A stretch of DNA of 64,000 nt from Pseudomonadales bacterium (GCA_020632265.1 JACKFW010000001.1:855272-919271); one strand, 5' to 3'. Shown: positions 17,521 to 61,201, counted from the stretch's first letter. Notes: generated by a model from the letters alone, not told the origin. Numbers and translations are program-made.

Positions 17521-19965
17521 ATGAACTTAGTAATTGTTGAATCACCTACGAAAGCTAGAAAATTAACGAAATACTTGGGTAGTGAGTATACAGTCGAAGC
17601 TTCAGTGGGTCATATTAGAGATCTTCCTAAATCGGGACTAAGTGTTGATGTTGAGCATGATTTTGAACCAACTTATGAAATTTCAAAAGACAAAATAAAA
17701 GTTGTCAGTAGATTAAGAGCATTAGCTAGTAAAGCTGAAAAAATTTATTTAGCAACTGATCCTGACCGTGAGGGAGAGGCTATTGGTTGGCATATTAAAT
17801 ATTTATTAGAGTCAGCTAAAGGTAAAAATAAAACCTCAGCAAAGTTTTTTAGAGCAACATTTCATGAAATTACCCAAAGTGCTGTTTTAAAAGCAATTGA
17901 AAACCCCGGTGAGTTAAATATTAATCTAATTGACGCTCAACAAGCTCGTAGAGTTGTGGATAGATTAGTTGGCTATAAATTATCTCCAGTTTTATGGAAA
18001 AAGGTTCGCCGAGGTCTTTCGGCAGGAAGAGTTCAATCTGTAGCGCTACGCTTAATTGTCGATCGTGAACGAGAGATTGAGGTTTTTATTCCAGAGGAGT
18101 ATTGGGAAATAGATGTTGCTATGAGCAAATTAAAACTTGGTAGCTCAAAAGTGTTTGATAAGGATCTAAAAGTTACGGAAAACCTGAATGATGAAATATT
18201 TATTGCAAGAGTTGTTGAAGTTGATGGCAATAAATATGATCCAAAAGTTGAAAAAGATGTTACTCCATTGGTGTCAATATTGCCAACAGCTGACTATGTA
18301 GTTGATTCAATAGAAAAGAAGGAGCGAAAACGCTCTAGTCAACCTCCGTTTACTACTTCAACAATGCAACAAAAAGCTGCAACTATGTTTGGTTATAGTG
18401 GCAAACAAACAATGAGATTAGCTCAGCAATTATATGAAGAGGGTTTAATCACTTATCATCGTACTGACTCTTTTAACCTTTCCAATTCTGCTGTTAGCAT
18501 GGCGAGAGATTTTATCTCAAAGGAATATGGAAATAAGTATCTACCATCAAAGCCAGTATTATTCTCAAATAAAAGCAAGAATGCTCAAGAAGCTCATGAA
18601 GCTATTCGTGTAACCCAAATTGAAATCCGAGCTAAAGATTTGCTGGCTAAAAGTGCAAAATTTAGTCCACAACATGTTAAGTTGTATGACCTAATATGGA
18701 GAAGATTTGTTGCGAGTCAAATGACCAATGGATTATATGATCAAACATCAGTAAAAATTAATTTTGTTAGTAATAAAAAGACCAGCGAAGTAAAAAAAGG
18801 AGTTCTTAAAACTTCTGGATCTGTATTAAAGTTTGATGGTTGGATGAAGTTATTCCCAAATAGGGAAGATTCATTGTTACCCGAACTTGCTGAAAAACAA
18901 GATTTGAATTATCTAGACCAAGCAGCTGCTCAAAAATTTACTCAACCTCCTGCCAGATATAACGATGCTTCATTAATAAAAGAGCTTGAGAAAAGAGGAG
19001 TTGGAAGACCAAGCACTTATGCCTCTATTATTTCTGTTATTATCGATCGGGGTTATATTGAGAGAATACAAAAAAAGTTTTTTGCATCAAATGTCGGTAT
19101 GACTGTAAGTGACTTTTTATTACAACATTTTCCTCAAGTAATGGATTATGAATTCACGGCAGAAATGGAGGAAGATTTAGATAGAATTTCTAGAGGTGAA
19201 AAACAATGGAGAAAAGTTGTTGGTGATTTTTATAAACCTCTAGAAAAGAAGATTGAGAATGTAACTGAGAAGGCTGAGAGAACTCAAATTCCTGTAGAAA
19301 AGACTGGAGAAAAATGTCCAGATTGTTCTGCTGAACATGGTGGTGAAATTGTTATTAGGTCTGGAAAATTTGGCAAGTTTATGAGTTGCAATCGTTTTCC
19401 AGAATGTAAATATACCAAAAACATTGTGGAAACAGTTGAAGATGTTGTTTGTCCTTTATGCCAAAAAGGCGAAGTTACAATGAAGAATACCAGATGGGGA
19501 AAGCCATTTTTCGGTTGTGGAAATTATCCAAAATGCAATTGGGCATCTTGGAAGAAGCCTGAAAAGGGCGAGGTAATGACAAAAGAAGAATGGAAAGTTC
19601 TTCAAGAGGCAAGAGAAGAGAGAAAGAAAAAATGGGCCGAAAGGAAAAGTGGAAAATCCACCACCGCGCTGTCAAAAAAAGCAATTAAACAGCCTAAAAA
19701 ACCCGCCAAATTTGTAAATAAACTTGCCGAAGTCGCAAACAAACCTGCTAAAGTCGCAAACAAACCTGCTAAAATTGCAAACAAACCTGCCAAAGATACG
19801 AAAGAACCTGATGGCGAAGTTGTAAAAATGCCGACTAAAGTCAAGAAAAGATCAACAAAAATTAAGAAAAAACCTACCAAAGTCGCAAACAAACCTGCTA
19901 AAGATATAAAAGAATCTGCTGGCGAAGTTGTAAAAAAAACTAAAACTAAGGCTACTAAAAAGTAA
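17521..19965 (+). CDS. topA: DNA topoisomerase I with C-terminal zinc-ribbon domains and a Lys-rich repetitive tail
   Basis: Toprim N-terminus (LVIVESPTKARKL, DPDREGE), catalytic-Tyr region (YHRTDS), several Cys4 ribbons (CPDC...C..C; CPLC...C..C), and a tail with KPAKVANKPAK repeats. Confidence 0.9.
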   Translation: MNLVIVESPTKARKLTKYLGSEYTVEASVGHIRDLPKSGLSVDVEHDFEPTYEISKDKIKVVSRLRALASKAEKIYLATDPDREGEAIGWHIKYLLESAKGKNKTSAKFFRATFHEITQSAVLKAIENPGELNINLIDAQQARRVVDRLVGYKLSPVLWKKVRRGLSAGRVQSVALRLIVDREREIEVFIPEEYWEIDVAMSKLKLGSSKVFDKDLKVTENLNDEIFIARVVEVDGNKYDPKVEKDVTPLVSILPTADYVVDSIEKKERKRSSQPPFTTSTMQQKAATMFGYSGKQTMRLAQQLYEEGLITYHRTDSFNLSNSAVSMARDFISKEYGNKYLPSKPVLFSNKSKNAQEAHEAIRVTQIEIRAKDLLAKSAKFSPQHVKLYDLIWRRFVASQMTNGLYDQTSVKINFVSNKKTSEVKKGVLKTSGSVLKFDGWMKLFPNREDSLLPELAEKQDLNYLDQAAAQKFTQPPARYNDASLIKELEKRGVGRPSTYASIISVIIDRGYIERIQKKFFASNVGMTVSDFLLQHFPQVMDYEFTAEMEEDLDRISRGEKQWRKVVGDFYKPLEKKIENVTEKAERTQIPVEKTGEKCPDCSAEHGGEIVIRSGKFGKFMSCNRFPECKYTKNIVETVEDVVCPLCQKGEVTMKNTRWGKPFFGCGNYPKCNWASWKKPEKGEVMTKEEWKVLQEAREERKKKWAERKSGKSTTALSKKAIKQPKKPAKFVNKLAEVANKPAKVANKPAKIANKPAKDTKEPDGEVVKMPTKVKKRSTKIKKKPTKVANKPAKDIKESAGEVVKKTKTKATKK
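19700..19945 (+). repeat. coding tandem repeat: 21-bp AAACCTGCTAAAGTCGCAAAC units plus a ~50-bp duplication, encoding the Lys/Ala/Pro-rich tail of TopA
   Basis: Direct repeats are visible in the nucleotide sequence at 19720-19800 and 19870-19940. Confidence 0.7.
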
Positions 19966-21498: not shown

Positions 21499-21957
21499 AT
21501 GAGAAGAAAAACAATGTCTAATTATGTAGATATCGATAACACTAGAGAAGATGAGCAAAAAAAGGTTATGGAAGAGATTATCCTCGCAGATCACTGTCCT
21601 TTTTGTGAGGAAAATCTAAGTAAATATCATAAAAATCGATTCATTAAGGAAGGTAAACACTGGATTTTAACTAAGAATCGGTGGCCTTATGAACATACGA
21701 AAGTTCATTTGCTTTTAATTTATAAAAAACATGCGACTCATCTAAATGAATTGGATTCTAAGGCTGGTAAGGAATTATTAGATTTTGTTAAATGGGCCGA
21801 ACAAAAATATCATATTGCTGGCGGTGGTTGGGCTATGCGTTTTGGAGACACAAATTATTCAGCCGGAACAGTAAATCATATTCATGTGCAGTTTATACAG
21901 CCTGACCTTAATTCCCCAAATTACAAACCAGTTAGAATTAAATTAGGCAAAGGTTGA
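21499..21957 (+). CDS. HIT-superfamily protein of the GalT-like branch (HxHxQ, CxxC zinc motif), putative nucleotidyl transferase/phosphorylase
   Basis: CPFCEEN near the N-terminus and HIHVQFI (an HxHxQ triad variant). Confidence 0.55.
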   Translation: MRRKTMSNYVDIDNTREDEQKKVMEEIILADHCPFCEENLSKYHKNRFIKEGKHWILTKNRWPYEHTKVHLLLIYKKHATHLNELDSKAGKELLDFVKWAEQKYHIAGGGWAMRFGDTNYSAGTVNHIHVQFIQPDLNSPNYKPVRIKLGKG

Positions 21958-22100
21958 TCGAAAGTAAACAAGTCCACTTGGTTAGAATTAAACTAGGCAA
22001 AGGTTGATCGAAAGTAAACAAGTCCACTTGGTTAGAATTAAACTAGGCAAAGGTTGATCGAAAGTAAACAAGTCCACTTGGTTAGAATTAAACTAGGCCG
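21931..22100 (+). repeat. 50-bp tandem repeat, about 3.4 copies, beginning inside the 3' end of the HIT gene and re-copying its TGA stop
   Basis: GTTAGAATTAAAYTAGGCAAAGGTTGATCGAAAGTAAACAAGTCCACTTG recurs at 21931, 21981 and 22031, with a partial copy at 22081. Confidence 0.9.
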
Positions 22101-30358: not shown

Positions 30359-30441
30359 TATTTTAATAGATATAATATTTTCCACAATTTAGTTGGGGTG
30401 TTCGTGATAAAATTAAAGGGAAGAATTAGTCAGATACAATC

Positions 30442-32142: not shown

Positions 32143-35112
32143 ATGTTTTCTTTTCATAAAAATAACACTCCCAACTTTTCAAGTGATGATGATAATTTTC
32201 AGTTGATCAATAAAACTTCAGATCATGTTGATGATTTGCAGTTTCATGATAAATCTAATACTAAATCTAAAATCAAATCTAGTAAAAAACAAATGGTGGT
32301 TTTTTTGAGTATTTTTGTTTTTTCATTAATGAGTTTGGCAGTATTGGTAGCATTTAATCGTCAACAATATAATTATGATTCTAGAAAAGAAGCTGCATGT
32401 AATCTTTCAGTTTCAAAGTGGATGCCTATAGAAATAAGTTTCTCGGGTCCTGAACTTAGTGAAACATCTACATCGCCCAATAATCCTTTTCTTGACTATC
32501 GATTAAATGTTAAATTTATAAGTCCAACTGGCAAAGAAATCAATGTTCCAGGTTTTTTTGATGGAGATGGATCTGGTTCTGGAGTTGGCAACAAATGGAA
32601 GGTTCGCTTTTCTCCAAGCGAAGAGGGTTCTTGGACGTATGTGGCCGATCTTAGAAGTGGGAGTAATATTGCAGTTGATACAAATTTATCAAGTGGAAAT
32701 TCTCAATCAATTGTTCCAGATTGTCAAAATTCTTTTTCTGTTGGTGCATTAAATTCATCCGCTCCAGGATTCTTCAAGTGGGGAAGACTAGAATATGTTG
32801 GAAAACATTATCCAAAATTTGCTAATGGTCCTTACTTTATTAAGATTGGAACTGATTCTCCAGAAAATATGTTGGGTTTTGTAGGATTTGATAATACAGT
32901 TGATCAAGGTGGCTTAGTACCTAACTTTCTTCACACTTTCGCACCTCACGCTGAAGATTGGCAACAAGGTAATCCAACATTTGGCAGTAATCCCGAATTG
33001 TCAAAAAATATCATTGGAGCACTAAACTATTTGAGTAACAGTGGTATTAATTCAATCTACTTTTTACCAATGAATCTTGGAGGAGATGGTCAGGATACTT
33101 ATCCTTTTGTTGACGCGAATATTGCAAATAATAAAAATTACGATGTTAGTAAGCTTAATCAATGGAACATTGTTTTACAACACGCTCAAAAGAAAGGAAT
33201 TGCGCTTAACGTTGTTCTTTCAGAAACAGAGGATCAAAATACTGATTGGTTGGGAGGAATTTCTTCTCTCACAATTGAGAGAAAATTATATTTAAGAGAA
33301 TTGATTGCTCGATTTGGATATTTGCCTGCAATTCAGTGGAATATTGGCGAAGAAAGTAAATTTCCACAAAGTACTACTGAAGCCATTGCTGATTACCTCA
33401 CCGCGTTGGATTGGCAAAATCACCAAATTACATATCATACTCCTAAAGATGGTATTGGAGTATACAACTGGGCTTATGGTAATCCAAAATTTGATGCTAC
33501 TTCCGTTCAATATACATTCTTAGAAGGTATTAAAAATAGCGAATTTGTTGAAATTCTTCGAGCAAATAGTGCTCAAGCCAATCGTCCTTGGATTGTCAAT
33601 ATGGATGAAAATTTTGGTGGATTAGTTCATAACCCAGGTCATTATCGACTTAGTCGATTGTATGACATTTTATTTTCTGGAGGAGGAGTTGAGTGGTATT
33701 TTGGATGCACCAGTCCTTGTGAAGATGTTACTGCCGAAAATTTCGACACTCCTGAATTAAGAGAACTTTGGGCATATAACAAAGTGGCGCATGACTTTAT
33801 GCAAAACAATCTTCCTTTTTGGGATATGATTCCTCTCGACGATGTGGTGGGAGGTGAACTTGAACATGAAACTTATGGTGGTGCTGAAGTATTTGCTCTT
33901 CCTGGTCAAGTTTATGCAATTTATTTTGCCTCATCCAATACAACTGGAACAATTGATTTAAGAAATGTTAGTGGTCAATTTACTAAGCAATGGTTTAATC
34001 CCGTTAATGGTCAGACAGTAGGACCTCAAGAAATTGTAAATGCAGGTGCTTATGTTAATAATGGCACTGCTCCCAATCCTTTAGCAGATTGGATATTGTT
34101 GTACAAAAAAACTGATTTTACTTTGCCTCCTCCTATTAGCACTAATACTGATCCAGTCTGCAATCAACTTTGTGATGCTTCACAAACCTGTGAGCAAGGA
34201 TTGGAATGCAAGCCATTGTCATGGGTTTGGCAATACTTGAGCACAGAAGAAGAACTTTTTTCAGGAATTTCAATTGCAGGCAAAGAAATTAAATCATTTG
34301 ATGTTTATTATCATAATCGAGACAATGAAATTCGTCAGAATGCAATTATTGATTCGACGGTTTATTATCGCACCAATCGAGATTGGATTTGGAGATCAAT
34401 TGGATCTGTCGATCAAGTTTTTGCAGGAGCAGGTTCTGGAGAAGTTACGCTCTTTGATGTAGCCTATTACCGAGAAGCTAATCAAGTTATTCAGCATATT
34501 ATAAGATCAAATCGTTTATACAAAAGAACCTCTTTAGATTGGAATACCTGGGAAGATTTGGGTAATATCAATGATATTTTCCCTGGATCAGGTCCTCTTG
34601 AAGGATTTGACACCTTCCAACATCCTAATGGAGAAATACGTCAGCATGTAATCAGGGGTAATAGAGCGTATCGCAGAACTCTTCCGGGAAATAACTGGGA
34701 AGACCTAGGAGATTATAACGAAGTCTTTAGAGGTACTGGAAACGGTGAAATTATATCTTTCGATGTTCACAGTCCTAGCGGAAATTCTGAAGTGATTCAG
34801 CAAGTATTACGTGGTGGTTTGGTATGGAAAAGAAATAGTAAAGAAGAATCCCGATGCAGATTACCTTCACAACCTGCAACAACAAATTGTTTACCGATAC
34901 CAAATGGTGGCCAAACTATGAATCCTCAAAATAATAACAATAACGCCGTTGCTTCACCAGCTACTGCAACACCAACGCCTACGGTAAATGCTAAACCTGC
35001 TTCACCAGCTACTGCAACACCAACGCCTACGGTAAATGCTAAACCTGCTTCACCAGCTACTGCAACACCAACGCCTACGCCGGTTATTAGTCAAGACAGA
35101 ATGAGTCTATAA
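32143..35112 (+). CDS. large surface/secreted protein: N-terminal TM anchor, glycoside-hydrolase-like (DUF4038/GH5-clan-like) domain, four ~48-aa lectin/propeller-like repeats, Pro/Thr-rich repetitive tail
   Basis: TM VVFLSIFVFSLMSLAVLVAF. Four repeats of the form EIRQNAIIDSTVYYRTNRDWIWRSIGSVDQVFAGAGSGEVTLFDV. C-terminal ASPATATPTPTVNAKP appears three times. Confidence 0.55.
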   Translation: MFSFHKNNTPNFSSDDDNFQLINKTSDHVDDLQFHDKSNTKSKIKSSKKQMVVFLSIFVFSLMSLAVLVAFNRQQYNYDSRKEAACNLSVSKWMPIEISFSGPELSETSTSPNNPFLDYRLNVKFISPTGKEINVPGFFDGDGSGSGVGNKWKVRFSPSEEGSWTYVADLRSGSNIAVDTNLSSGNSQSIVPDCQNSFSVGALNSSAPGFFKWGRLEYVGKHYPKFANGPYFIKIGTDSPENMLGFVGFDNTVDQGGLVPNFLHTFAPHAEDWQQGNPTFGSNPELSKNIIGALNYLSNSGINSIYFLPMNLGGDGQDTYPFVDANIANNKNYDVSKLNQWNIVLQHAQKKGIALNVVLSETEDQNTDWLGGISSLTIERKLYLRELIARFGYLPAIQWNIGEESKFPQSTTEAIADYLTALDWQNHQITYHTPKDGIGVYNWAYGNPKFDATSVQYTFLEGIKNSEFVEILRANSAQANRPWIVNMDENFGGLVHNPGHYRLSRLYDILFSGGGVEWYFGCTSPCEDVTAENFDTPELRELWAYNKVAHDFMQNNLPFWDMIPLDDVVGGELEHETYGGAEVFALPGQVYAIYFASSNTTGTIDLRNVSGQFTKQWFNPVNGQTVGPQEIVNAGAYVNNGTAPNPLADWILLYKKTDFTLPPPISTNTDPVCNQLCDASQTCEQGLECKPLSWVWQYLSTEEELFSGISIAGKEIKSFDVYYHNRDNEIRQNAIIDSTVYYRTNRDWIWRSIGSVDQVFAGAGSGEVTLFDVAYYREANQVIQHIIRSNRLYKRTSLDWNTWEDLGNINDIFPGSGPLEGFDTFQHPNGEIRQHVIRGNRAYRRTLPGNNWEDLGDYNEVFRGTGNGEIISFDVHSPSGNSEVIQQVLRGGLVWKRNSKEESRCRLPSQPATTNCLPIPNGGQTMNPQNNNNNAVASPATATPTPTVNAKPASPATATPTPTVNAKPASPATATPTPTPVISQDRMSL
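34945..35095 (+). repeat. 48-bp coding tandem repeat (3 copies) encoding the A/T/P-rich linker
   Basis: GCTTCACCAGCTACTGCAACACCAACGCCTACGGTAAATGCTAAACCT appears three times. Confidence 0.85.
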
Positions 35113-48700: not shown

Positions 48701-49663
48701 ATGAGTAAAACTGCCATAATAATTAAACGAGTTGCAGATGAGCTTGGTTTAACATCAAGATTTATAGATGATTACAAACTTGTTTTAGTGATTGATTTTG
48801 GGAATAAATCTCACACTTTTATTGCTAATAATATTGGTATCAATGATGAAGCAGTTAGAAAAATTTGTAATGACAAGTTTTACACTTATCTTTTATTAAA
48901 GAATGTTATCAATTTACCAAAAACACTAAGTTTTGTAGACCCAAATGCAGAAGATATATATCTTAATCAAGGTAAATTGAGTTTGAACAAGATAGAAGAA
49001 AAGATTATAACAACTCATACTTACCCAATTTTGATCAAAGCTAATAGTCTTTCTAGAGGAATAAATGTTTTCAAGTGTCTTGACAGAGATCAAGTTAAAA
49101 AAGCAATAAAAAATATTTATAACCAAAAATCTAAAAATTATGATCATGTTTTAATTTCTCAAGATTATATCGATAGTGTCGCTGAATACAGAGTGGTGGT
49201 TTATGATCAAAAAGTTCAGTTTGTGTATCAAAAAGATAATAATATTAATTTAGATTTGAGTAAAAGTTTGCAAGAAGCCAAAAGTATTCAAGGGGATGTA
49301 AATATTCAAGAAGCCAGAGATTTGCATGAAAGCAGAAGTATTCAAGCCGGCAAAAAGACTCAAGTTAGAAAATCTCCAAAATTTGTTGGAAATTTAAGTC
49401 CGTTGCATTGGGAAAATTCTAAATCAGTCTTAATTGATGACAAAAATTTCCTTACTAAAATGTCAGCTTTTATTAAACCTGTTTTTTCAAAAATAGATTT
49501 AAAATATGCTGGTTTAGACATCATTGAAGATAAGTTAGGAAAGTTATGGTTAATTGAAATAAACTCACAACCTGGCTTTACCTATTTTATTAGAGATAAT
49601 TCAGATAAAGAAATCATAAAAATGTATCGGAAAATACTTTTGGATTTGAGGAACCAGATATAA
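48701..49663 (+). CDS. ATP-grasp-fold protein (RimK/glutathione-synthetase-like ligase) with an internal low-complexity insert
   Basis: Central YPILIKANSLSRGINVF and C-terminal KLWLIEINSQPGF (ATP-grasp Mg/ATP-binding E-x-N). Insert with SIQ repeats. Confidence 0.5.
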   Translation: MSKTAIIIKRVADELGLTSRFIDDYKLVLVIDFGNKSHTFIANNIGINDEAVRKICNDKFYTYLLLKNVINLPKTLSFVDPNAEDIYLNQGKLSLNKIEEKIITTHTYPILIKANSLSRGINVFKCLDRDQVKKAIKNIYNQKSKNYDHVLISQDYIDSVAEYRVVVYDQKVQFVYQKDNNINLDLSKSLQEAKSIQGDVNIQEARDLHESRSIQAGKKTQVRKSPKFVGNLSPLHWENSKSVLIDDKNFLTKMSAFIKPVFSKIDLKYAGLDIIEDKLGKLWLIEINSQPGFTYFIRDNSDKEIIKMYRKILLDLRNQI

Positions 49664-49755
49664 GGGTAAAAAGAAACAGATATAAAGGTAAAAAAGAACC
49701 AGATATAAAGGTAAAAAGAACCAGATATAAAGGTAAAAAGGACCGGACAAAAAAA
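49651..49755 (+). repeat. 22-23-bp tandem repeat, about 4.5 copies, starting in the last codons of the ATP-grasp gene and re-copying its TAA stop
   Basis: GAACCAGATATAARGGTAAAAA recurs at 49651, 49673, 49696 and 49718, with a partial copy at 49741. Confidence 0.85.
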
Positions 49756-49810
49756 TTAGTAAAAAAACTAAAAAATAATTGACGATGATTAAAAATATTC
49801 TTGAGCAGAA

Positions 49811-55982: not shown

Positions 55983-56068
55983 GCCGAGGTGGCGGAACGG
56001 TAGACGCGTGGGTCTCAAAAACCCATGAGGGTAACCTCGTGAGGGTTCGATTCCCTCTCTCGGCACCA
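55983..56068 (+). tRNA. tRNA-Leu (anticodon CAA), type II with a long variable arm and encoded CCA
   Basis: Acceptor stem GCCGAGG/CTCTCGGC. D-arm GGCGGAACGGTAGACGC. Anticodon stem-loop TGGGT-CTCAAAA-ACCCA. Variable arm TGAGGGTAACCTCGTG. T-arm GAGGGTTCGATTCCCTC. Discriminator A followed by CCA. Confidence 0.85.
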
Positions 56069-56236
56069 TATAGCTTTGACAAATTTTACAAGAAATTATT
56101 ACACAGGAATTTAGTTGCACCAAAACATCTTACCGAGTTATTTACTGGATATAAGTACGAATTTACCAATGGTCCATTGGTAAAATCTTTGGATCAAATT
56201 GAGCAAGACGGGCTTAACTGTCAGCTTCTAGTGCAT

Positions 56237-56659
56237 ATGGCACTTGAGGAACTTGGGTTTAGTCTGCCAAAGTGGATGCGTTCCAGCGAGCTGTTTGAAG
56301 ACGAAGTCTTTTTAGAGACAGTTTTGAAACAACAAATTTCTTCTAGAAAATTGGCACATATGGAGTTACCAGATTCGAGGGTGGGGGACATTTGGTTTTT
56401 TAGCAACAATGGTACTAAATCAGACAATAGTGATTCCAAATTTTTCCATTTGGCGGTGGTTTCTCAAGTAAGTCAAGATGGTATGCCAATTTTATTACAT
56501 GCAAGGAAAGAAAAGGGTCAAGATGCGGTTGTAGAGTGGGGGATTGATGAATTTAAGTCAAGTGAATTATATCGTGTTTTTCAAGGAATTAAGAGGCCTC
56601 GAAGGGAGGCAGTGTGTTTGAGTGAATCTGAAGAGCAATTTGGATATGAGATACTTTGA
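56237..56659 (+). CDS. hypothetical protein immediately downstream of tRNA-Leu; start uncertain
   Basis: The ORF is open from 56039 and overlaps the tRNA. 56237 is the first ATG past the tRNA. Contains a Cys...His pair (LNCQLLVH), so a papain-like/NlpC fold cannot be excluded. Confidence 0.35.
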   Translation: MALEELGFSLPKWMRSSELFEDEVFLETVLKQQISSRKLAHMELPDSRVGDIWFFSNNGTKSDNSDSKFFHLAVVSQVSQDGMPILLHARKEKGQDAVVEWGIDEFKSSELYRVFQGIKRPRREAVCLSESEEQFGYEIL

Positions 56660-56831: not shown

Positions 56832-57308
56832 TTATCTCAAAAACCAAATCGCCACTAAAACCAAAAATTGAGGTAATAACCCTACAATTATATTGTGAGT
56901 AGAGTGGTGAAATGATCCGTGCAGTTTGTTGAAAGGCTTAAAAAACCAAGGCTCCCATTTGAGGAAATTTCTTGGTGACTCGATCAAATCTGGTACTATT
57001 CCAAAAAGAGCACCCATCCAAATATGGGGCACTAAATTACTATCACTGCCTCGAAAAAAATAATATATTAGACCTACGCAAATCACTAGTTCAACCAATT
57101 CCAGCATAATTGCGGTACTTCTTTTGCGTTTTCCTGATGAAAGGCCTGTGCCAACGTCCCAATGAGGTATCCAGTCTTCCAAGTAATGCATGCCAATTGT
57201 TAGGGGGATATAAAGTGCTGGATGCGGCAGTTTACTGGCAATAAATGCGCCAGTGATAGCATGAGGTATTGATAACATGTCAATAAGTATACTAATTAGC
57301 CAAAGCAT
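56832..57308 (-). CDS. hypothetical integral membrane protein (YdjM-like membrane hydrolase fold possible)
   Basis: Four to five TM helices with conserved His/Asp in helices (HAITGAF; HYLEDWIPHWD). Confidence 0.4.
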   Translation of the reverse strand: MLWLISILIDMLSIPHAITGAFIASKLPHPALYIPLTIGMHYLEDWIPHWDVGTGLSSGKRKRSTAIMLELVELVICVGLIYYFFRGSDSNLVPHIWMGALFGIVPDLIESPRNFLKWEPWFFKPFNKLHGSFHHSTHNIIVGLLPQFLVLVAIWFLR

Positions 57309-57323
57309 TGTACAATTTGAAAT

Positions 57324-58157
57324 ATGTTTCCAGTATTATTTTCCATTGGTCCAGTGACGCTTAGAACAATGAGTTTATTTGTTATTTTGAGTTTTTTCGT
57401 CAGCAGTTTTATATTTTGGAGAAAAGGCAGAGAAGAGCATTACAAAATAATTGAATTGTTTGACAGCTTTATTTTATCAACAGTTGTGGGCTTATCTTTG
57501 GCAAGGCTGGCACACATATTGTTGAATTTTGATCAGTTTGGTCTGGATATTCTAAAATGGTTTGATTTTATAAATTTTTCTGGCATTAATTTAATTGTTG
57601 GAATTGTAGCGGCAAGCATCTATATTTATCAATTTTCACTTAAAAAAAAGTGGGATGCTTTTGAAGTTTTAGATTTTTGGGTAACTAGTATTTCATTGGG
57701 AATTTCAGTTAATTTTGTGGGTTTATTTTTTGAAGGTGTTGGGTATGGTAATGCAACTCAGTTGCCATGGGGAGTGGTTTTTCCTCAGCTAATTGATCCA
57801 CATCATCCCGCTCAGCTTTATTCAGCAATATTTTATCTATTATTGTATTTTTATCTCTCGAGAATTGAGTATAGTTATAGGACTATTTCTTGGTATCGAC
57901 ATGGAAAAAAAACAGCCCAAACTGGATTTTTAGTTTCAACTTTTCTCATTATCACTGCAATTTATAATTTTTTGATAATTTTTTTGAGACCAACAAACTT
58001 GGCATTCTTTGGTATAAATTTTGATCTAGTTATTAGTGTAGCTTTATTTATATTTGGTTTGTCAATTTTATTTTATCGATCTGGAAGATCATTTCCAATT
58101 TCATTTAATAAGAAACCAAAACCAGTTAGAACTAAAATAGAAAACCTTAGTGAATAA
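57324..58157 (+). CDS. lgt: prolipoprotein diacylglyceryl transferase
   Basis: FPVLFSIGPVTL (Lgt N-terminal motif DPVIFSIGPVAL) and HPAQLY (Lgt HPSQLY). Polytopic membrane protein. Confidence 0.8.
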   Translation: MFPVLFSIGPVTLRTMSLFVILSFFVSSFIFWRKGREEHYKIIELFDSFILSTVVGLSLARLAHILLNFDQFGLDILKWFDFINFSGINLIVGIVAASIYIYQFSLKKKWDAFEVLDFWVTSISLGISVNFVGLFFEGVGYGNATQLPWGVVFPQLIDPHHPAQLYSAIFYLLLYFYLSRIEYSYRTISWYRHGKKTAQTGFLVSTFLIITAIYNFLIIFLRPTNLAFFGINFDLVISVALFIFGLSILFYRSGRSFPISFNKKPKPVRTKIENLSE

Positions 58158-58554
58158 TAAATATTTTTTTTTCTCATTAATAATCATTGATCAAACGTCA
58201 AAGTTTTTTGCAAAATTTCTTGGTTTTCCGGTTGCGTTAAACTTTGGAATTTCGCTCAATCTCTTAAGTTTTTTACCTACAAGTATGATGACATTATTTT
58301 TGGTCTTTGCAATTTTTTTTATTTTTTACTTTTTCAAAAAGGATTGGGTTAAAAACCTTTTGGTTGCAAGTCTTTTTTTTGCTGGAGCAATTTCGAATAT
58401 CATAGATAGAATCATTTTTGGGGGAGTGAGAGATTGGCTTAAAATGCCTTTTTTCAATATTCATAATAATCTAGCTGATTGGTTTATTTTTATAGGTTTG
58501 GGGCTATTTCTATTTACTTTGTTTCATGAAGAAATGGATGGTAAAATCAACTAA
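58150..58554 (+). CDS. lspA: lipoprotein signal peptidase II
   Basis: NFGISLNLL (NxGxAF) and GGAISNIIDRIIFGGVRDWL (GGxxGNxxDR..G.VvDf). Four TM helices. Overlaps the lgt stop by 8 bp. Confidence 0.7.
   Translation: MNNKYFFFSLIIIDQTSKFFAKFLGFPVALNFGISLNLLSFLPTSMMTLFLVFAIFFIFYFFKKDWVKNLLVASLFFAGAISNIIDRIIFGGVRDWLKMPFFNIHNNLADWFIFIGLGLFLFTLFHEEMDGKIN
58481..58550 (+). repeat. left copy of a 70-bp direct repeat (the 3' end of lspA)
   Basis: GGTTTATTTTTATAGGTTTGGGGCTATTTCTATTTACTTTGTTTCATGAAGAAATGGATGGTAAAATCAA is identical to 59568-59637. Confidence 0.9.
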
Positions 58555-58640
58555 CTTAGTCATGGGGTAGTGCGAAATAAAATTATAAAGTGGAAGTAAA
58601 CATTGGGCATATTTGGAACTATATTTAATAGACAAGATTT

Positions 58641-59582
58641 ATGATTTCATTATCTAAAATTAGAAATAAGAATATCTTAATTACGGGTATTACAGGTTTT
58701 ATTGGTTTAAATTTATCGAAAAAATTAAAGGAAATGGGAGCAAATGTTTTTGGTATATCAAGAACAAGTCAAGTTGATAATATATATAAAATAAATCTAG
58801 ATGACTTTGATTCTTTAGATGATTTTATTAAAGCTAAAAAGATTTCAATTTGTTTTCATTTAGCGGGCGAGTCCCTTGTTGAATCAGGATATGAAGATCC
58901 ATTGAATACATTTAAAACAAATATAACAAAAACGCTTAATGTATTAGAGTCTGCTAGAAAGAATCATCTTGATAAAATTATTATTTCTTCTACAGCACAT
59001 GTTTATGGCGCCCTCAGTTCTCCTTGCACAGAAAATGATAATCCACGGCCATCAAGACCCTATGAAACATCTAAATTGTGCACAGATTTAATTAGTCAAT
59101 CGTATGCAAATACGTTTGGTTTGCCAATTTTTGTACCGAGATTGGTAAATATTTATGGTCCTGGTGATAATAATTTTAGAAGATTGATCCCTAATACAAT
59201 TAGAAATATACTTTTAGATAAAAATCCTCAGATGTGGGGAGGCAAAGCAATTAGAGATTATTTATTCATCGATGACGCTGTAAACGCATATGTTTCGTTG
59301 GCACTTGCAAATAATTCAGTTGTTCAAAAAGGAATTATTTTTAACTTTGGATCAAATAACATTATTTCAGTTGAAGACTTAATATTGAAATTAATTAAAA
59401 TTTCTAAAAAAGATCTAAAAATAATAAACATTCCTTTTGAGAGAGATAACGAAATAGCTGAACAATTTCTAAATTTTTCAAAGGCAAAAAAACTCTTAGA
59501 ATGGAATCCGACAGTAAATATTGATGAGGGATTAAAAAGAACTTATAAATGGTATGAAAAAAAAGCCGGTTTATTTTTATAG
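58641..59582 (+). CDS. NAD-dependent epimerase/dehydratase (extended SDR; UDP-sugar 4-epimerase or 4,6-dehydratase-like)
   Basis: Rossmann motif ILITGITGFIGLNL and catalytic YETSK (YxxxK). The last 5 codons and the TAG stop come from the duplicated lspA 3' segment. Confidence 0.75.
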   Translation: MISLSKIRNKNILITGITGFIGLNLSKKLKEMGANVFGISRTSQVDNIYKINLDDFDSLDDFIKAKKISICFHLAGESLVESGYEDPLNTFKTNITKTLNVLESARKNHLDKIIISSTAHVYGALSSPCTENDNPRPSRPYETSKLCTDLISQSYANTFGLPIFVPRLVNIYGPGDNNFRRLIPNTIRNILLDKNPQMWGGKAIRDYLFIDDAVNAYVSLALANNSVVQKGIIFNFGSNNIISVEDLILKLIKISKKDLKIINIPFERDNEIAEQFLNFSKAKKLLEWNPTVNIDEGLKRTYKWYEKKAGLFL

Positions 59583-59637
59583 GTTTGGGGCTATTTCTAT
59601 TTACTTTGTTTCATGAAGAAATGGATGGTAAAATCAA
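59568..59637 (+). repeat. right copy of the 70-bp direct repeat
   Basis: See 58481-58550. It diverges only at the distal end (..AAAATCAAGCTAA here against ..AAAATCAACTAA). Confidence 0.9.
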
Positions 59638-59781
59638 GCTAAAGAAATAAAGTGTGTTTTCGAAATTTAATTGCACCTTAAGGTTGTGCGAAGTTTAAAT
59701 TTTAAAATTAATTGATGCAAACGTGAGGTTGTGCGAAACTAAAATTTAAAAGGGGATGAGACAAATAATTAAAAAAAACAT

Positions 59782-60651
59782 ATGAAAATAGTTGGAAAAA
59801 AAATCAAAATTGAAATAGTCCATGAGGATGAGGATTTGCTAGTGATTAATAAACCACCGGGGTTGGTGGTAAATAGAGCAGAAACAATTAAGACCGAAAC
59901 GCTTCAAGACTGGCTTGAAAATAATTTAAGTGAGATTAAAAATCGCGAATTCCCTAAAAATTGGCAGGCTCAGATCCCGGCAGAATTTAAGAGCGAATAT
60001 GGAACTCCTGAGGAAATTTTTGAATCTCGCACTGGTCTAGCTCATCGACTCGACAAGGATACAAGCGGAGTGATGCTAATTGCTAAGCACCCTGGATCAT
60101 TGGTTAATTTACTCAGACAGTTCAGGCTTAGAGAGGTCCAAAAAATGTACACCTGTTTGACTCATGGAAAGTTTGCATTTCAAAAAGGTGAAGTAAATTT
60201 GCCCCTTGGAAGAAAACAAGCTGATAGAAAATTATTTGCAGTCGTTCCTGATGGCAGGCCCGCTCTAACGAAATACGAAGTTGAGAGTCTTTTTACAATT
60301 TTCAACCTACAAAAATTAATTTCAGATTTTGAGAAAAGTCATGGAACTGATCATAATTTAAAGAAGAAACGTTTTTCATTGTATGATGGTTTTTCTCTAG
60401 TAAATTGTTGGCCAAAGACAGGCAGAACACACCAGATTAGAGTGCATATGGCCTATTTAAAGCACCCAATTGTAGGAGATGTGCAATATATTGGTAAAAA
60501 AAGATCTAAATTGGATAATTTGTGGTGTCATAGACAGTTTTTACATGCAAGACAAATTGAGTTCACTCATCCTAAAACCGGTGTAAAAGTTCAATATTCT
60601 ACAGATTTAACCGATGACCTATTATCCACATTGACCTATGTCTCATTTTAA
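59782..60651 (+). CDS. RluA-family pseudouridine synthase
   Basis: Catalytic-Asp motif HRLDKDTSGVML and the downstream RluA-family block (GRTHQIRVH). Confidence 0.8.
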   Translation: MKIVGKKIKIEIVHEDEDLLVINKPPGLVVNRAETIKTETLQDWLENNLSEIKNREFPKNWQAQIPAEFKSEYGTPEEIFESRTGLAHRLDKDTSGVMLIAKHPGSLVNLLRQFRLREVQKMYTCLTHGKFAFQKGEVNLPLGRKQADRKLFAVVPDGRPALTKYEVESLFTIFNLQKLISDFEKSHGTDHNLKKKRFSLYDGFSLVNCWPKTGRTHQIRVHMAYLKHPIVGDVQYIGKKRSKLDNLWCHRQFLHARQIEFTHPKTGVKVQYSTDLTDDLLSTLTYVSF

Positions 60652-60812
60652 ATGTATCTTATTGTAAGGATATAATAAATATAAAAGAAAAAGATCTACT
60701 AATTTTTTATGATAAATTTTCTTAGGAATTAAATGGAGTACAAAAAATTCAAGACCAGTATAAAGAAAAATATTTTGTTTATTCATTAGGAAAAATTATT
60801 GATCTTCACTAC

Positions 60813-60841
60813 TTGATAAATGAATAATAAATGTGTATAAT
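60813..60841 (+). promoter_or_regulatory. near-consensus sigma70-type promoter (TTGATA, 17-nt spacer, TGTG-extended TATAAT) with no ORF downstream
   Basis: TTGATA at 60813-60818, TGTG extension at 60832-60835 and TATAAT at 60836-60841. Confidence 0.5.
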
Positions 60842-60848
60842 GGCAGGT

Positions 60849-60998
60849 AGGTTTAGAGAAACATTCGCGAAAGACACCTTTAATTAGGCTTTCGCTCCCA
60901 AGATACATAAGTCTTGTGAACAAAGTAGGGACTATAGAGTTTTACTTAACAAGATCGAAACCAAGAAGAGCGGGAGGCTTAATATCAGGTGTTTTTTT
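60849..60998 (+). ncRNA. candidate small non-coding RNA (~150 nt), class unknown
   Basis: Starts about 7 nt after the -10 element. Contains no ATG and has no ORF partner. Segments 60875-60889 and 60977-60991 can pair 12 of 15 to close the molecule, and the second segment runs into a U7 tract at 60992-60998. Confidence 0.3.
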
Positions 60999-61201
60999 AT
61001 TCAAGATTAAATTTTTATTTTTTTAAGTAGAAGTTTTAGCTGATAAAAAAACATTTTGTGCAATTTTTATAAAATTTGATTTTCTGTAGAGAGAGTAGAT
61101 TAGGTAAAAAATGACCATACAAAAACAAACAAATATTACCATCTTTATCCAGAGAGTAATCTTCTTAATTTGGGGGATTTAAATAATCGTCTCGCGCTTC
61201 A

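What the first reader, a model, noticed from the sequence alone, without database searches (positions are those of the whole stretch)
58481..59637. Epimerase/dehydratase gene inserted into the 3' end of lspA, flanked by a perfect 70-bp direct repeat
A 70-bp segment comprising the last 19 codons of lspA is present twice, at 58481-58550 and 59568-59637. It brackets a 1.09-kb segment that holds only an NAD-dependent sugar epimerase/dehydratase gene.

The epimerase ORF actually terminates inside the second repeat copy, borrowing its last codons (..AGLFL*) from lspA sequence. The two copies are 100% identical over 70 bp and then diverge (AAAATCAAC|TAA against AAAATCAAG|CTAA).

This is the signature of a recent single-gene insertion or duplication-mediated capture at the lgt-lspA 3' end, rather than ancient synteny. 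No transposase or integrase accompanies it. The mechanism could be target-site duplication by an unseen element, replicative template switching, or site-specific capture. In an organism with little sugar metabolism, a mobile cell-surface sugar-modification gene is interesting cargo.
Basis: seen in the sequence. Interest (0 to 1): 0.6.

Follow-up and report, generated by a model that had tools for sequence, protein, structure and literature searches.

The report
Captured sugar gene, duplicated lspA tail
A lone sugar-nucleotide dehydratase/epimerase gene, apparently torn out of a glycosylation gene cluster, has been spliced between lspA and rluA of an ultra-small (Patescibacteria) bacterium, leaving a 70-base duplicate of the lspA tail; this is a real but ordinary recombination scar, not a mobile element.

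Summary
A perfect 70-nt direct repeat lies at 58481-58550 and 59568-59637. It extends to 74/75 nt with one extra G in copy 2. It brackets 1,017 nt that hold one SDR epimerase/dehydratase gene, whose last four codons and stop come from copy 2.

The arrangement is real: independent assemblies reproduce it at 100% identity. It is lineage-specific: seven relatives (RluA 69-73% identical) have lgt-lspA-rluA with no epimerase. The five closest epimerase homologues (58-65%) all sit in GT4-GT2-epimerase-SDR clusters. The ~45 nt before the window's epimerase resemble a decayed GT2 3' end.

Both ends of the captured DNA therefore seem to lie inside genes. There is no integrase, transposase, terminal inverted repeat, att-like structure or second occurrence.

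Best reading: one-off illegitimate or homologous recombination, for example single-crossover integration of a circularised fragment carrying the lspA tail, or template-switch repair. The event duplicated the lspA end and kept lspA intact.

No empty-site allele was found. "Insertion" is supported; "mobile cargo" is not. Interest is low to moderate.

The parts
57324..58157 (+). lgt (prolipoprotein diacylglyceryl transferase), 277 aa. It overlaps the lspA start by 8 nt. This is the upstream half of the conserved lgt-lspA-rluA block.
   Evidence: Pfam PF01790, 84 bits. 64-68% identical orthologues sit at the same position in 6 relatives.
58150..58554 (+). lspA (signal peptidase II), 134 aa, intact. 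It ends ...GKIN* using repeat copy 1.
   Evidence: Pfam PF01252, 54 bits. The conserved NNLADW motif and the C-terminal length match relatives; L096 ends ...KKIN* with the same AAC TAA.
58481..58554 (+). Repeat copy 1: R (58481-58550, 70 nt) plus CTAA. It encodes the last transmembrane helix, the tail and the ancestral-type stop of LspA.
58555..58596 (+). Leader segment holding promoter-like motif 'a' (GGGGTAGTGCGAAATAAAATTATAAAG, 58564-58590). It belongs to a 4-copy motif family found upstream of + strand genes.
   Evidence: 28/33 identity to 59723-59756. Score 34, against a maximum of 31 over 3,153 other windows. Family pattern: 4 hits against 0.06 expected.
58597..58640 (+). Probable decayed 3' end of a GT2 glycosyltransferase gene (reads TLGIFGTIFNR, with the stop TAA changed to CAA), plus the native GT2-epimerase spacer.
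   Evidence: Position-specific similarity to the GT2 3' ends of L005 (score 30; 0.7% of other L005 windows reach it) and L006 (score 27; 0 of 1,415). A window-wide search with short GT2 peptides does not single it out, so support is moderate.
58641..59582 (+). Extended-SDR sugar-nucleotide epimerase/4,6-dehydratase family gene, 313 aa. Native sequence runs to 59567 (A309); codons 310-313 (GLFL) and the TAG stop come from repeat copy 2.
   Evidence: Pfam PF01370, 176 bits, and PF16363, 171 bits. GxxGxxG, S117 and Y141-x3-K145 are invariant in the alignment. Below every NCBIfam equivalog cut-off.
59568..59642 (+). Repeat copy 2: R (59568-59637) plus GCTAA. This is the displaced, non-functional copy of the lspA tail, with one extra G.
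59643..59781 (+). lspA-rluA spacer holding two tandem promoter-like motif copies, b (59682-59701) and c (59727-59752).
   Evidence: (D6).
59782..60651 (+). RluA-family pseudouridine synthase, 289 aa. In all relatives this gene directly follows lspA.
   Evidence: Pfam PF00849; NCBIfam TIGR00005, 205 bits, above its cut-off. Synteny.

Best explanation
This is a one-off recombination scar, not a mobile element.

Shown: the ancestral locus was lgt-lspA-(short spacer)-rluA.

Inferred: in the window lineage, a ~1.0-kb piece of DNA carrying an SDR sugar-nucleotide epimerase/dehydratase gene was cut out of a GT4-GT2-epimerase-SDR glycosylation cluster. The left break lay in the 3' end of the GT2 gene. 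The right break lay 0-10 codons before the epimerase's own stop. The piece was joined in at the 3' end of lspA by general recombination or repair, in a way that duplicated the last 74 nt of lspA.

The simplest route is single-crossover (Campbell-type) integration of a circularised fragment that carried the lspA tail. Template-switch or microhomology-mediated repair would give the same product.

The duplication has two consequences. lspA keeps its last transmembrane helix and its ancestral stop (copy 1). The displaced copy (copy 2) supplies the truncated epimerase with four codons and a stop; it later gained, or was created with, one extra G. The epimerase is intact in all catalytic motifs. It sits behind a promoter-like motif, so it is probably expressed and retained by selection.

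The stated confidence is for this class of explanation. For the Campbell-type route specifically it is about 0.3.
For: Empty architecture in relatives: L010, L011, L095, L096, L097, L098 and L099 all have lspA followed by rluA after -1 to 140 nt. L010 and L095 are syntenic with the window from DnaB or orf158 to SHMT.

Donor context: the five nearest epimerase homologues (P0004, P0005, P0006, P0007, P0009) all lie directly after a GT2 gene and before another SDR gene. The window holds no such cluster and no paralogue.

Breakpoints inside genes:
- 58597-58640 resembles the GT2 3' end, spacer and ATG of L005 and L006.
- The epimerase aligns with the family up to WYEKKA. It then switches to the R-derived GLFL*, where relatives have 5-15 variable residues.

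No element features:
- No terminal inverted repeats (p=0.54).
- R is not structured (z=-0.95).
- No Rfam hit.
- No recombinase among the neighbouring ORFs.
- R is absent from viral contigs.

Copy 1 carries the ancestral stop: the same AAC TAA, and the same C-terminal length, as L096 and L010.

Composition: epimerase GC3 is 0.182, against 0.242+-0.035 for host ORFs. It is close to its nearest homologue's 28%-GC cluster.

Precedent: integration of circular DNA carrying a gene-end fragment gave inserts flanked by 109-950-bp duplications of that gene end. This was more frequent than true HFIR (PMC3240628).
Against: - No donor sequence is available: the nearest homologue is only 65% identical. Microhomology at the junctions and the exact breakpoints cannot be checked.
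- The GT2-vestige evidence is position-specific and only moderate. A window-wide peptide search did not single it out.
- The leader also holds a promoter-like motif that resembles the rluA-upstream motif. The inserted DNA is therefore itself composite, or the history had two steps.
- A 74-nt homology is short for RecA-dependent single crossover.
- How a fragment would come to carry both the lspA tail and the epimerase is unexplained.
- No same-genus genome is available to date the event.
Confidence: 0.62

Rival explanations
1. Two-step history. The epimerase fragment was inserted long ago into the lspA-rluA spacer just downstream of a native promoter (motif a). Only later did a break at the epimerase 3' end get repaired by copying a 75-nt patch (R+CTAA) from 1 kb upstream. 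That templated fill-in replaced the native epimerase terminus.
For: - Motif a (58564-58590) resembles the rluA-upstream motifs b and c at about 85%, while R is 100% identical. The two similarities therefore have different ages.
- The GT2 vestige is heavily decayed: an internal stop, an apparent 12-codon gap relative to L006, and a lost stop codon. R is pristine.
- The spacer shows earlier local duplications, with b and c 45 nt apart.
Against: - Motif a is about as similar to the copy upstream of cysS at 30.4 kb (score 31) as to c (score 34). It need not derive from this spacer.
- This history needs two rare events at one locus.
- No intermediate genome is known that has the epimerase but lacks R2.
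Confidence: 0.2
2. Remnant or satellite of a site-specific integrative element. R would be attL/attR of an element that targets the 3' end of lspA and carries a replacement gene end. Its integrase has either been lost by deletion or acts in trans.
For: - Direct repeats that duplicate the 3' end of the target gene and keep it intact are the classic signature of islands integrated in gene 3' ends (established knowledge).
- Logan contig L002 closes on itself as a 1,087-nt cycle.
Against: - No integrase or recombinase lies in the insert or among the neighbouring ORFs.
- The insert's ends fall inside genes.
- None of the 7 relatives has anything at this site.
- R is absent from viral contigs.
- No other context for R, or for the epimerase with these ends, turned up in any collection searched.
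- The L002 cycle is what a k=31 graph yields for R-insert-R at low coverage.
Confidence: 0.08
3. Decay of a once-complete glycosylation island. The island would have been inserted between lspA and rluA with a longer duplication of lspA. Later deletions trimmed it to one gene and trimmed the second lspA copy to 70-75 nt.
For: - The GT2 vestige next to the epimerase.
- The boundaries of R could simply be deletion endpoints.
- The neighbourhood shows other lineage-specific gains and losses: the PRTase and guaA genes are missing after rluA, and orf206 has been gained.
Against: - It needs at least three events, yet leaves R with no substitutions.
- No relative shows an intermediate stage.
- The right-hand deletion would have to leave an in-frame stop for the epimerase by chance. 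This is also true of the other models.
Confidence: 0.08
4. Assembly or polishing artefact of the MAG.
For: 70-nt repeats collapse in k=31 graphs, and the Logan contigs do break at R.
Against: JGI contig L001 spans U-R-insert-R-D in one piece at 100% identity. ENA contig L004 spans the left junction. The source is a 1.08-Mb contig.
Confidence: 0.02

Closest known systems
Campbell-type (single-crossover) integration of circular DNA that carries a fragment of the target gene, as seen for non-replicating plasmids (PMC3240628)
   Same: The product architecture is identical: target-gene end, then foreign DNA, then a duplicated target-gene end. The duplications there were 109-950 bp. No dedicated recombinase or element ends are involved.
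   Different: The homology here is only 70-74 nt. The circular intermediate is hypothetical. The natural source of a fragment joining the lspA tail to an epimerase is unknown.
Homology-facilitated illegitimate recombination during natural transformation (Acinetobacter, Streptococcus pneumoniae; cited from PMC3240628 and from established knowledge)
   Same: One end is anchored in homologous DNA (lspA). The other end is joined illegitimately inside a gene. Foreign cargo is added without any mobile-element machinery. Patescibacteria are generally thought to take up DNA (my own knowledge, not tested here).
   Different: Classical HFIR deletes recipient DNA between the anchor and the joint rather than duplicating it. 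Junction microhomology cannot be examined without the donor sequence.
Genomic islands and prophages integrated in the 3' end of a gene (tRNA, tmRNA or protein genes) with attL/attR direct repeats
   Same: Direct repeats equal the 3' end of the target gene. The target gene is kept intact by the proximal copy, and a displaced copy lies distally.
   Different: There is no integrase, the cargo is only 1 kb, the ends lie inside genes, the site is unoccupied in all relatives, and no second instance exists.
Microhomology-mediated or template-switch repair products (MMBIR/FoSTeS-type templated insertions; established knowledge)
   Same: An insertion of non-adjacent DNA is flanked by a short duplication of the target. 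The junctions ignore gene boundaries. The locus shows other small local duplications.
   Different: This mechanism is described mainly in eukaryotes and E. coli stress models. No junction microhomology can be demonstrated here.

Membership tests
Site-specific integrative element / genomic island | Encodes, or lies adjacent to, a tyrosine or serine recombinase | tested here: not met
   The insert holds one SDR gene only. Pfam scans of the neighbouring ORFs gave LGT, Peptidase_A8, PseudoU_synth_2 or nothing.
Site-specific integrative element / genomic island | Direct repeats (attL/attR) that duplicate the target-gene end | tested here: met
   70-nt perfect repeat, or 74/75 nt with an indel, of the lspA 3' end.
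Site-specific integrative element / genomic island | Discrete element ends, and recurrence at the same site or elsewhere in other genomes | tested here: not met
   The ends fall within a GT2 vestige and within the epimerase's last codons. All 7 relatives have an empty site. No other context was found for R or for the epimerase.
IS element / transposon | Transposase gene, terminal inverted repeats, and a short (2-14 bp) target-site duplication | tested here: not met
   No transposase. The terminal inverted-repeat score is no better than shuffles (p=0.54). The duplication is 70-74 nt.
Integron gene cassette | attC site (an imperfect palindrome forming a hairpin) at the cassette 3' end | tested here: not met
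   R folds no better than shuffles as ssDNA (-3.9 kcal/mol, z=-0.95). No Rfam match. R is plain lspA coding sequence.
Campbell-type single-crossover integration product | The insert is flanked by direct repeats identical to a segment of the recipient gene, with the recipient gene reconstituted on one side | tested here: met
   Copy 1 gives an LspA with the ancestral C-terminus; copy 2 is displaced.
Campbell-type single-crossover integration product | A circular intermediate carrying the homology segment | not testable with these tools
   Only the cyclic k=31 contig L002 hints at this, and that is equally a graph artefact. Raw reads are needed.
Extended SDR NAD-dependent epimerase/dehydratase (PF01370/PF16363) | Score above Pfam gathering; Rossmann GxxGxxG; catalytic Ser/Thr and YxxxK | tested here: met
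   176 and 171 bits, against cut-offs of 20.9 and 27. G16/G19/G22, S117, Y141 and K145 are invariant across 14 homologues.
Specific enzyme: dTDP- or CDP-glucose 4,6-dehydratase, or GalE | Score above the NCBIfam equivalog cut-off | tested here: not met
   Best scores are 146 bits (cut-off 365), 143 bits (cut-off 278) and 123 bits (cut-off 262). Substrate and reaction remain unassigned.
LspA (signal peptidase II) | Pfam Peptidase_A8 above its cut-off, and conserved Asp-containing motifs | tested here: met
   54 bits against a cut-off of 25. SNIIDR and NNLADW are conserved with the relatives. Assigning these as the catalytic aspartates rests on established knowledge of LspA.

The most novel reading that the evidence does not exclude
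The 1,087-bp unit (R plus insert) would be an excisable mini-cassette. Recombination between the two R copies would pop it out as a circle and restore a functional lspA (ending ...GKIKLKK*), giving on/off loss or horizontal re-integration of a surface-glycan gene at lspA tails. The self-closing Logan contig L002 would be a physical trace of that circle.
Probability: 0.05. Interest if true: 0.5.

Novelty: new member of a known kind. Interest (0 to 1): 0.22.

Why it matters
It is a clean, well-bounded example of how a streamlined Patescibacteria genome gains a single functional gene without any mobile-element machinery. A gene fragment was torn from a glycosylation cluster and placed behind a promoter-like motif. 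It was completed by a borrowed stop codon, while the essential neighbour lspA was preserved by a short duplication. Such scars help calibrate how much gene flux in CPR bacteria comes from plain recombination or transformation rather than from elements. No new mechanism or system is revealed.

Tried and rejected
**Searches for an empty site or another copy**
- Exact empty-site LspA allele (...GKIKLKK): not in the 15-billion-protein collection.
- Empty-site DNA junction (left flank, R, right flank): 0 hits in JGI metagenome contigs.
- R in viral contigs: 0 hits.

**Searches for relatives**
- The GTDB species-representative scan with an RluA alignment saturated on distant homologues (best 47%) and gave no close relatives.
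- Close relatives came instead from exact-protein look-ups and the JGI scan.

**Tests for element features**
- Rfam at E<=1 over 57000-61200: nothing.
- The sigma-70 and terminator consensus scan was uninformative in this AT-rich DNA: 27 promoter-like sites against 19 expected.
- Terminal inverted repeats and an attC-like fold of R: negative.

**Tests of the insert's origin**
- A window-wide search with 40-aa GT2 C-terminal peptides gave only noise, so the GT2-vestige claim rests on position-specific tests.
- I first read motif 'a' as a diverged copy of the rluA spacer, which would have implied a longer and older duplication. I dropped this as the sole reading after finding a fourth, similar copy upstream of cysS at 30.4 kb.
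- I considered that the closest epimerase cluster (L005) might belong to the same organism as relatives L097 and L098, because the sample IDs are neighbours. I rejected this on GC content: 28% against 33%.
- Searches for traces of cluster DNA to the right of R2 found none above noise.

Full report
**1. The observation**

A 70-nt sequence occurs twice in direct orientation, at 58481-58550 and 59568-59637. The copies are 100% identical and 1,087 nt apart start to start. No shuffle of the window produced a match. It is the only long dispersed repeat in the 64-kb window; the other repeats are tandem arrays.

BLAST extends the pair to 74/75 nt with one indel. Copy 1 is R+CTAA and copy 2 is R+G+CTAA.

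Gene identities by Pfam:
- lgt, 57324-58157
- lspA, 58150-58554
- an extended-SDR epimerase/dehydratase, 58641-59582
- an RluA-family pseudouridine synthase, 59782-60651

R begins at the second base of the Trp codon in the conserved LspA motif NNLADW and runs to the penultimate base of the last codon.

The epimerase's native sequence ends at 59567 (…WYEKKA). Codons 310-313 (GLFL) and the TAG stop are read from copy 2 in another frame.

**2. The arrangement is real and belongs to one widespread clone**

The three proteins are exact matches to an NCBI MAG with a 1,082,363-bp contig. The record is labelled 'Pseudomonadales bacterium', but every homologue is from Patescibacteria or Woesebacteria.

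Independent assemblies reproduce the structure at 100% identity:
- JGI contig L001 (3,105 nt) spans both repeat copies and the insert.
- ENA contig L004 spans lspA, R1 and the start of the epimerase.
- The Logan (k=31) contigs stop or start exactly 30 nt inside R: L094 ends at 58510, L003 covers 58521-59597, and L092 and L093 start at 59608. This is what a de Bruijn graph gives for R-insert-R.

An assembly artefact is therefore excluded for practical purposes.

I found no empty-site allele. The predicted LspA ending …GKIKLKK is not in the protein collection. The empty-site DNA junction is absent from JGI metagenome contigs.

**3. Relatives show the ancestral state**

Seven loci from relatives were examined: L010, L011, L095, L096, L097, L098 and L099. 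Their RluA is 69-73% identical, Lgt 64-68%, and DnaB and SHMT 85-90%. All have lspA followed directly by rluA, with a spacer of -1 to 140 nt and no epimerase. L010 and L095 are syntenic with the window from DnaB or orf158 through SHMT.

So the epimerase is an insertion specific to the window lineage, placed into a conserved lgt-lspA-rluA block.

LspA of L096 ends …KKIN* with AAC TAA, and LspA of L010 ends …KKTN*. Both have the same C-terminal length as window copy 1 (…GKIN*, ATC AAC TAA). Copy 1 therefore carries the ancestral stop. The extra G in copy 2 is a change in the displaced, non-functional copy.

**4. Where the cargo came from**

The epimerase has 957 homologues at E<=1e-20, mostly from Patescibacteria. 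The nearest is 65% identical, and nothing closer exists.

The five nearest (P0004, P0005, P0006, P0007, P0009) all lie in the same context: GT4, GT2, this epimerase, then a second SDR gene, followed by further SDR, methyltransferase or glycosyltransferase genes. In each case the GT2 stop lies only 2-9 nt before the epimerase ATG. The window contains no such cluster and no paralogue of the epimerase.

The 45 nt before the window's epimerase ATG resemble the GT2 3' ends of the two closest clusters:
- The window has TTT AAT AGA CAA GATTT ATG. L005 has TTT AAT AGG TAA GATTTT ATG (FNR-stop).
- The window has AACATTGGGCATATTT. L006 has AACATTGGGCATGTTT (TLGMF).

These similarities beat shuffles (p<0.0005 and p=0.001-0.0035). 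They also beat almost all other positions in the same loci: 0.7% of L005 windows and 0 of 1,415 L006 windows reach the observed scores. A window-wide search with short GT2 peptides did not single the region out, so I rate this as moderate support.

At the other end, relatives continue for 5-15 variable residues after the conserved WY. The window protein switches to R-derived residues after WYEKKA.

Both ends of the captured DNA therefore appear to lie inside genes.

Composition gives weak support for a foreign origin. Epimerase GC3 is 0.182, at the low edge of the host distribution (0.242±0.035, minimum 0.179), and near the 28%-GC cluster of its nearest homologue.

**5. No mobile-element features**

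- There is no recombinase or transposase in the insert or among the neighbouring ORFs.
- There are no terminal inverted repeats (p=0.54).
- R has no unusual secondary structure (z=-0.95).
- There is no Rfam match.
- R is absent from viral contigs.
- No second genomic context for R, or for the epimerase, turned up in any collection.

**6. A complication: the leader is composite**

The segment 58564-58590 (GGGGTAGTGCGAAATAAAATTATAAAG) matches the motif just upstream of rluA (59723-59756) at 28/33. The score is 34, against a maximum of 31 over 3,153 other windows.

The runner-up is a fourth copy at 30388-30428, upstream of cysS. A loose pattern finds exactly these four copies, all on the + strand and all in spacers upstream of + strand genes, against 0.06 expected.

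I read this as a promoter-like element of this genome. Its presence between the lspA stop and the GT2 vestige has two possible meanings. Either the inserted DNA already had a history as a solo, promoter-equipped epimerase, or the epimerase entered the spacer earlier and the R duplication is a second, younger event. The contrast between a pristine R and a heavily decayed GT2 vestige fits either reading.

**7. Mechanism**

What is shown:
- an insertion relative to the ancestral synteny;
- a 74-nt duplication of the target that preserves lspA;
- breakpoints that probably lie inside genes;
- absence of element features.

What is inferred is the route. The architecture is exactly what single-crossover integration of a circular molecule carrying a gene-end fragment produces. 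In E. coli, such events gave inserts flanked by 109-950-bp duplications of the gene end, and they outnumbered true homology-facilitated illegitimate recombination (PMC3240628). Template-switch or microhomology-mediated repair would leave the same scar.

I put 0.62 on the class 'element-independent recombination scar' and about 0.3 on the Campbell-type route specifically. The rivals are a two-step history (0.2), an att-site remnant (0.08), island decay (0.08) and an assembly artefact (0.02).

**8. Function of the parts**

- LspA is intact.
- The epimerase retains GxxGxxG, S117 and Y141-x3-K145. It scores below every NCBIfam equivalog cut-off, so its substrate is unassigned.
- The insert is present in every dataset that contains this organism. 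Retention despite 70-nt direct repeats, which could delete it, suggests it is useful. This is an inference.

**9. Comparison with known systems, and novelty**

The structure works like a Campbell-type or illegitimate integration product. It only superficially resembles an island integrated in a gene 3' end, and it fails the defining tests for islands, IS elements and integron cassettes (see the membership table).

It is a new instance of a known kind of event. Interest is low to moderate: a tidy example of element-free gene gain in a CPR genome.

The most novel reading not excluded is an excisable 1,087-bp cassette. The only hint is the self-closing contig L002. I give it about 5%.

Noticed in passing
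window 30397-30418, 58564-58590, 59682-59701, 59727-59752: A promoter-like motif family (GGT.GTKCG, then 2-6 nt, then TAAAWT, often followed by AAAG). There are four copies against 0.06 expected. All are on the + strand, in spacers 15-60 nt upstream of + strand genes (cysS, the epimerase, and rluA twice).
   Followed up: partly
window 60652-61201, core 60868-60998: An ORF-free 550-nt stretch after rluA holds a strongly structured segment that ends in a T-run (MFE -41.3 kcal/mol, z=-3.41, 0 of 200 shuffles as good). It has no Rfam match at E<=1, so it may be an undescribed small RNA. Relatives carry a phosphoribosyltransferase gene (and guaA in L010) at this position; neither gene is anywhere in the window.
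   Followed up: partly
window 55983-56659: A 206-aa ORF (56039-56659) abuts and overlaps the 3' end of tRNA-Leu(CAA). It has no Pfam domain and no counterpart in the seven relatives' loci. This is a second lineage-specific insertion about 2 kb from the finding.
   Followed up: partly
L002 (Logan SRR30635583, 1,117 nt) = window 58481-59597: The first 30 nt of this contig equal its last 30 nt, so it is a closed 1,087-nt cycle of R plus insert in a k=31 graph. That is expected for R-insert-R at low coverage, but it would also be the signature of an excised circle. It cannot be resolved without reads.
   Followed up: partly
whole window (source record): The source MAG is labelled 'Pseudomonadales bacterium' at NCBI. 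Its 33% GC content, its ~1.08-Mb contig and all of its protein homologues (Woesebacteria, Microgenomates, Pacebacteria) indicate Patescibacteria. This is a taxonomic mislabel. Several GTDB hits labelled 'uncultured Gammaproteobacteria' look similarly mislabelled.
   Followed up: partly
window 21931-22098; 34950-35093; 19675-19941; 49651-49762; 1307/2435/3334: Several tandem arrays: a 50-nt unit at 99-100% identity, a 48-nt unit, a 21-nt unit and a 22-nt unit. There is also a dispersed 63-nt repeat with three copies spaced about 1 kb apart.
   Followed up: no
window 33878-33896 vs L005 4945-4963: A 19-nt exact match (GGTGCTGAAGTATTTGC..) between the GT2 3' end of the closest epimerase cluster and an unrelated position in the window. 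It is probably chance.
   Followed up: no
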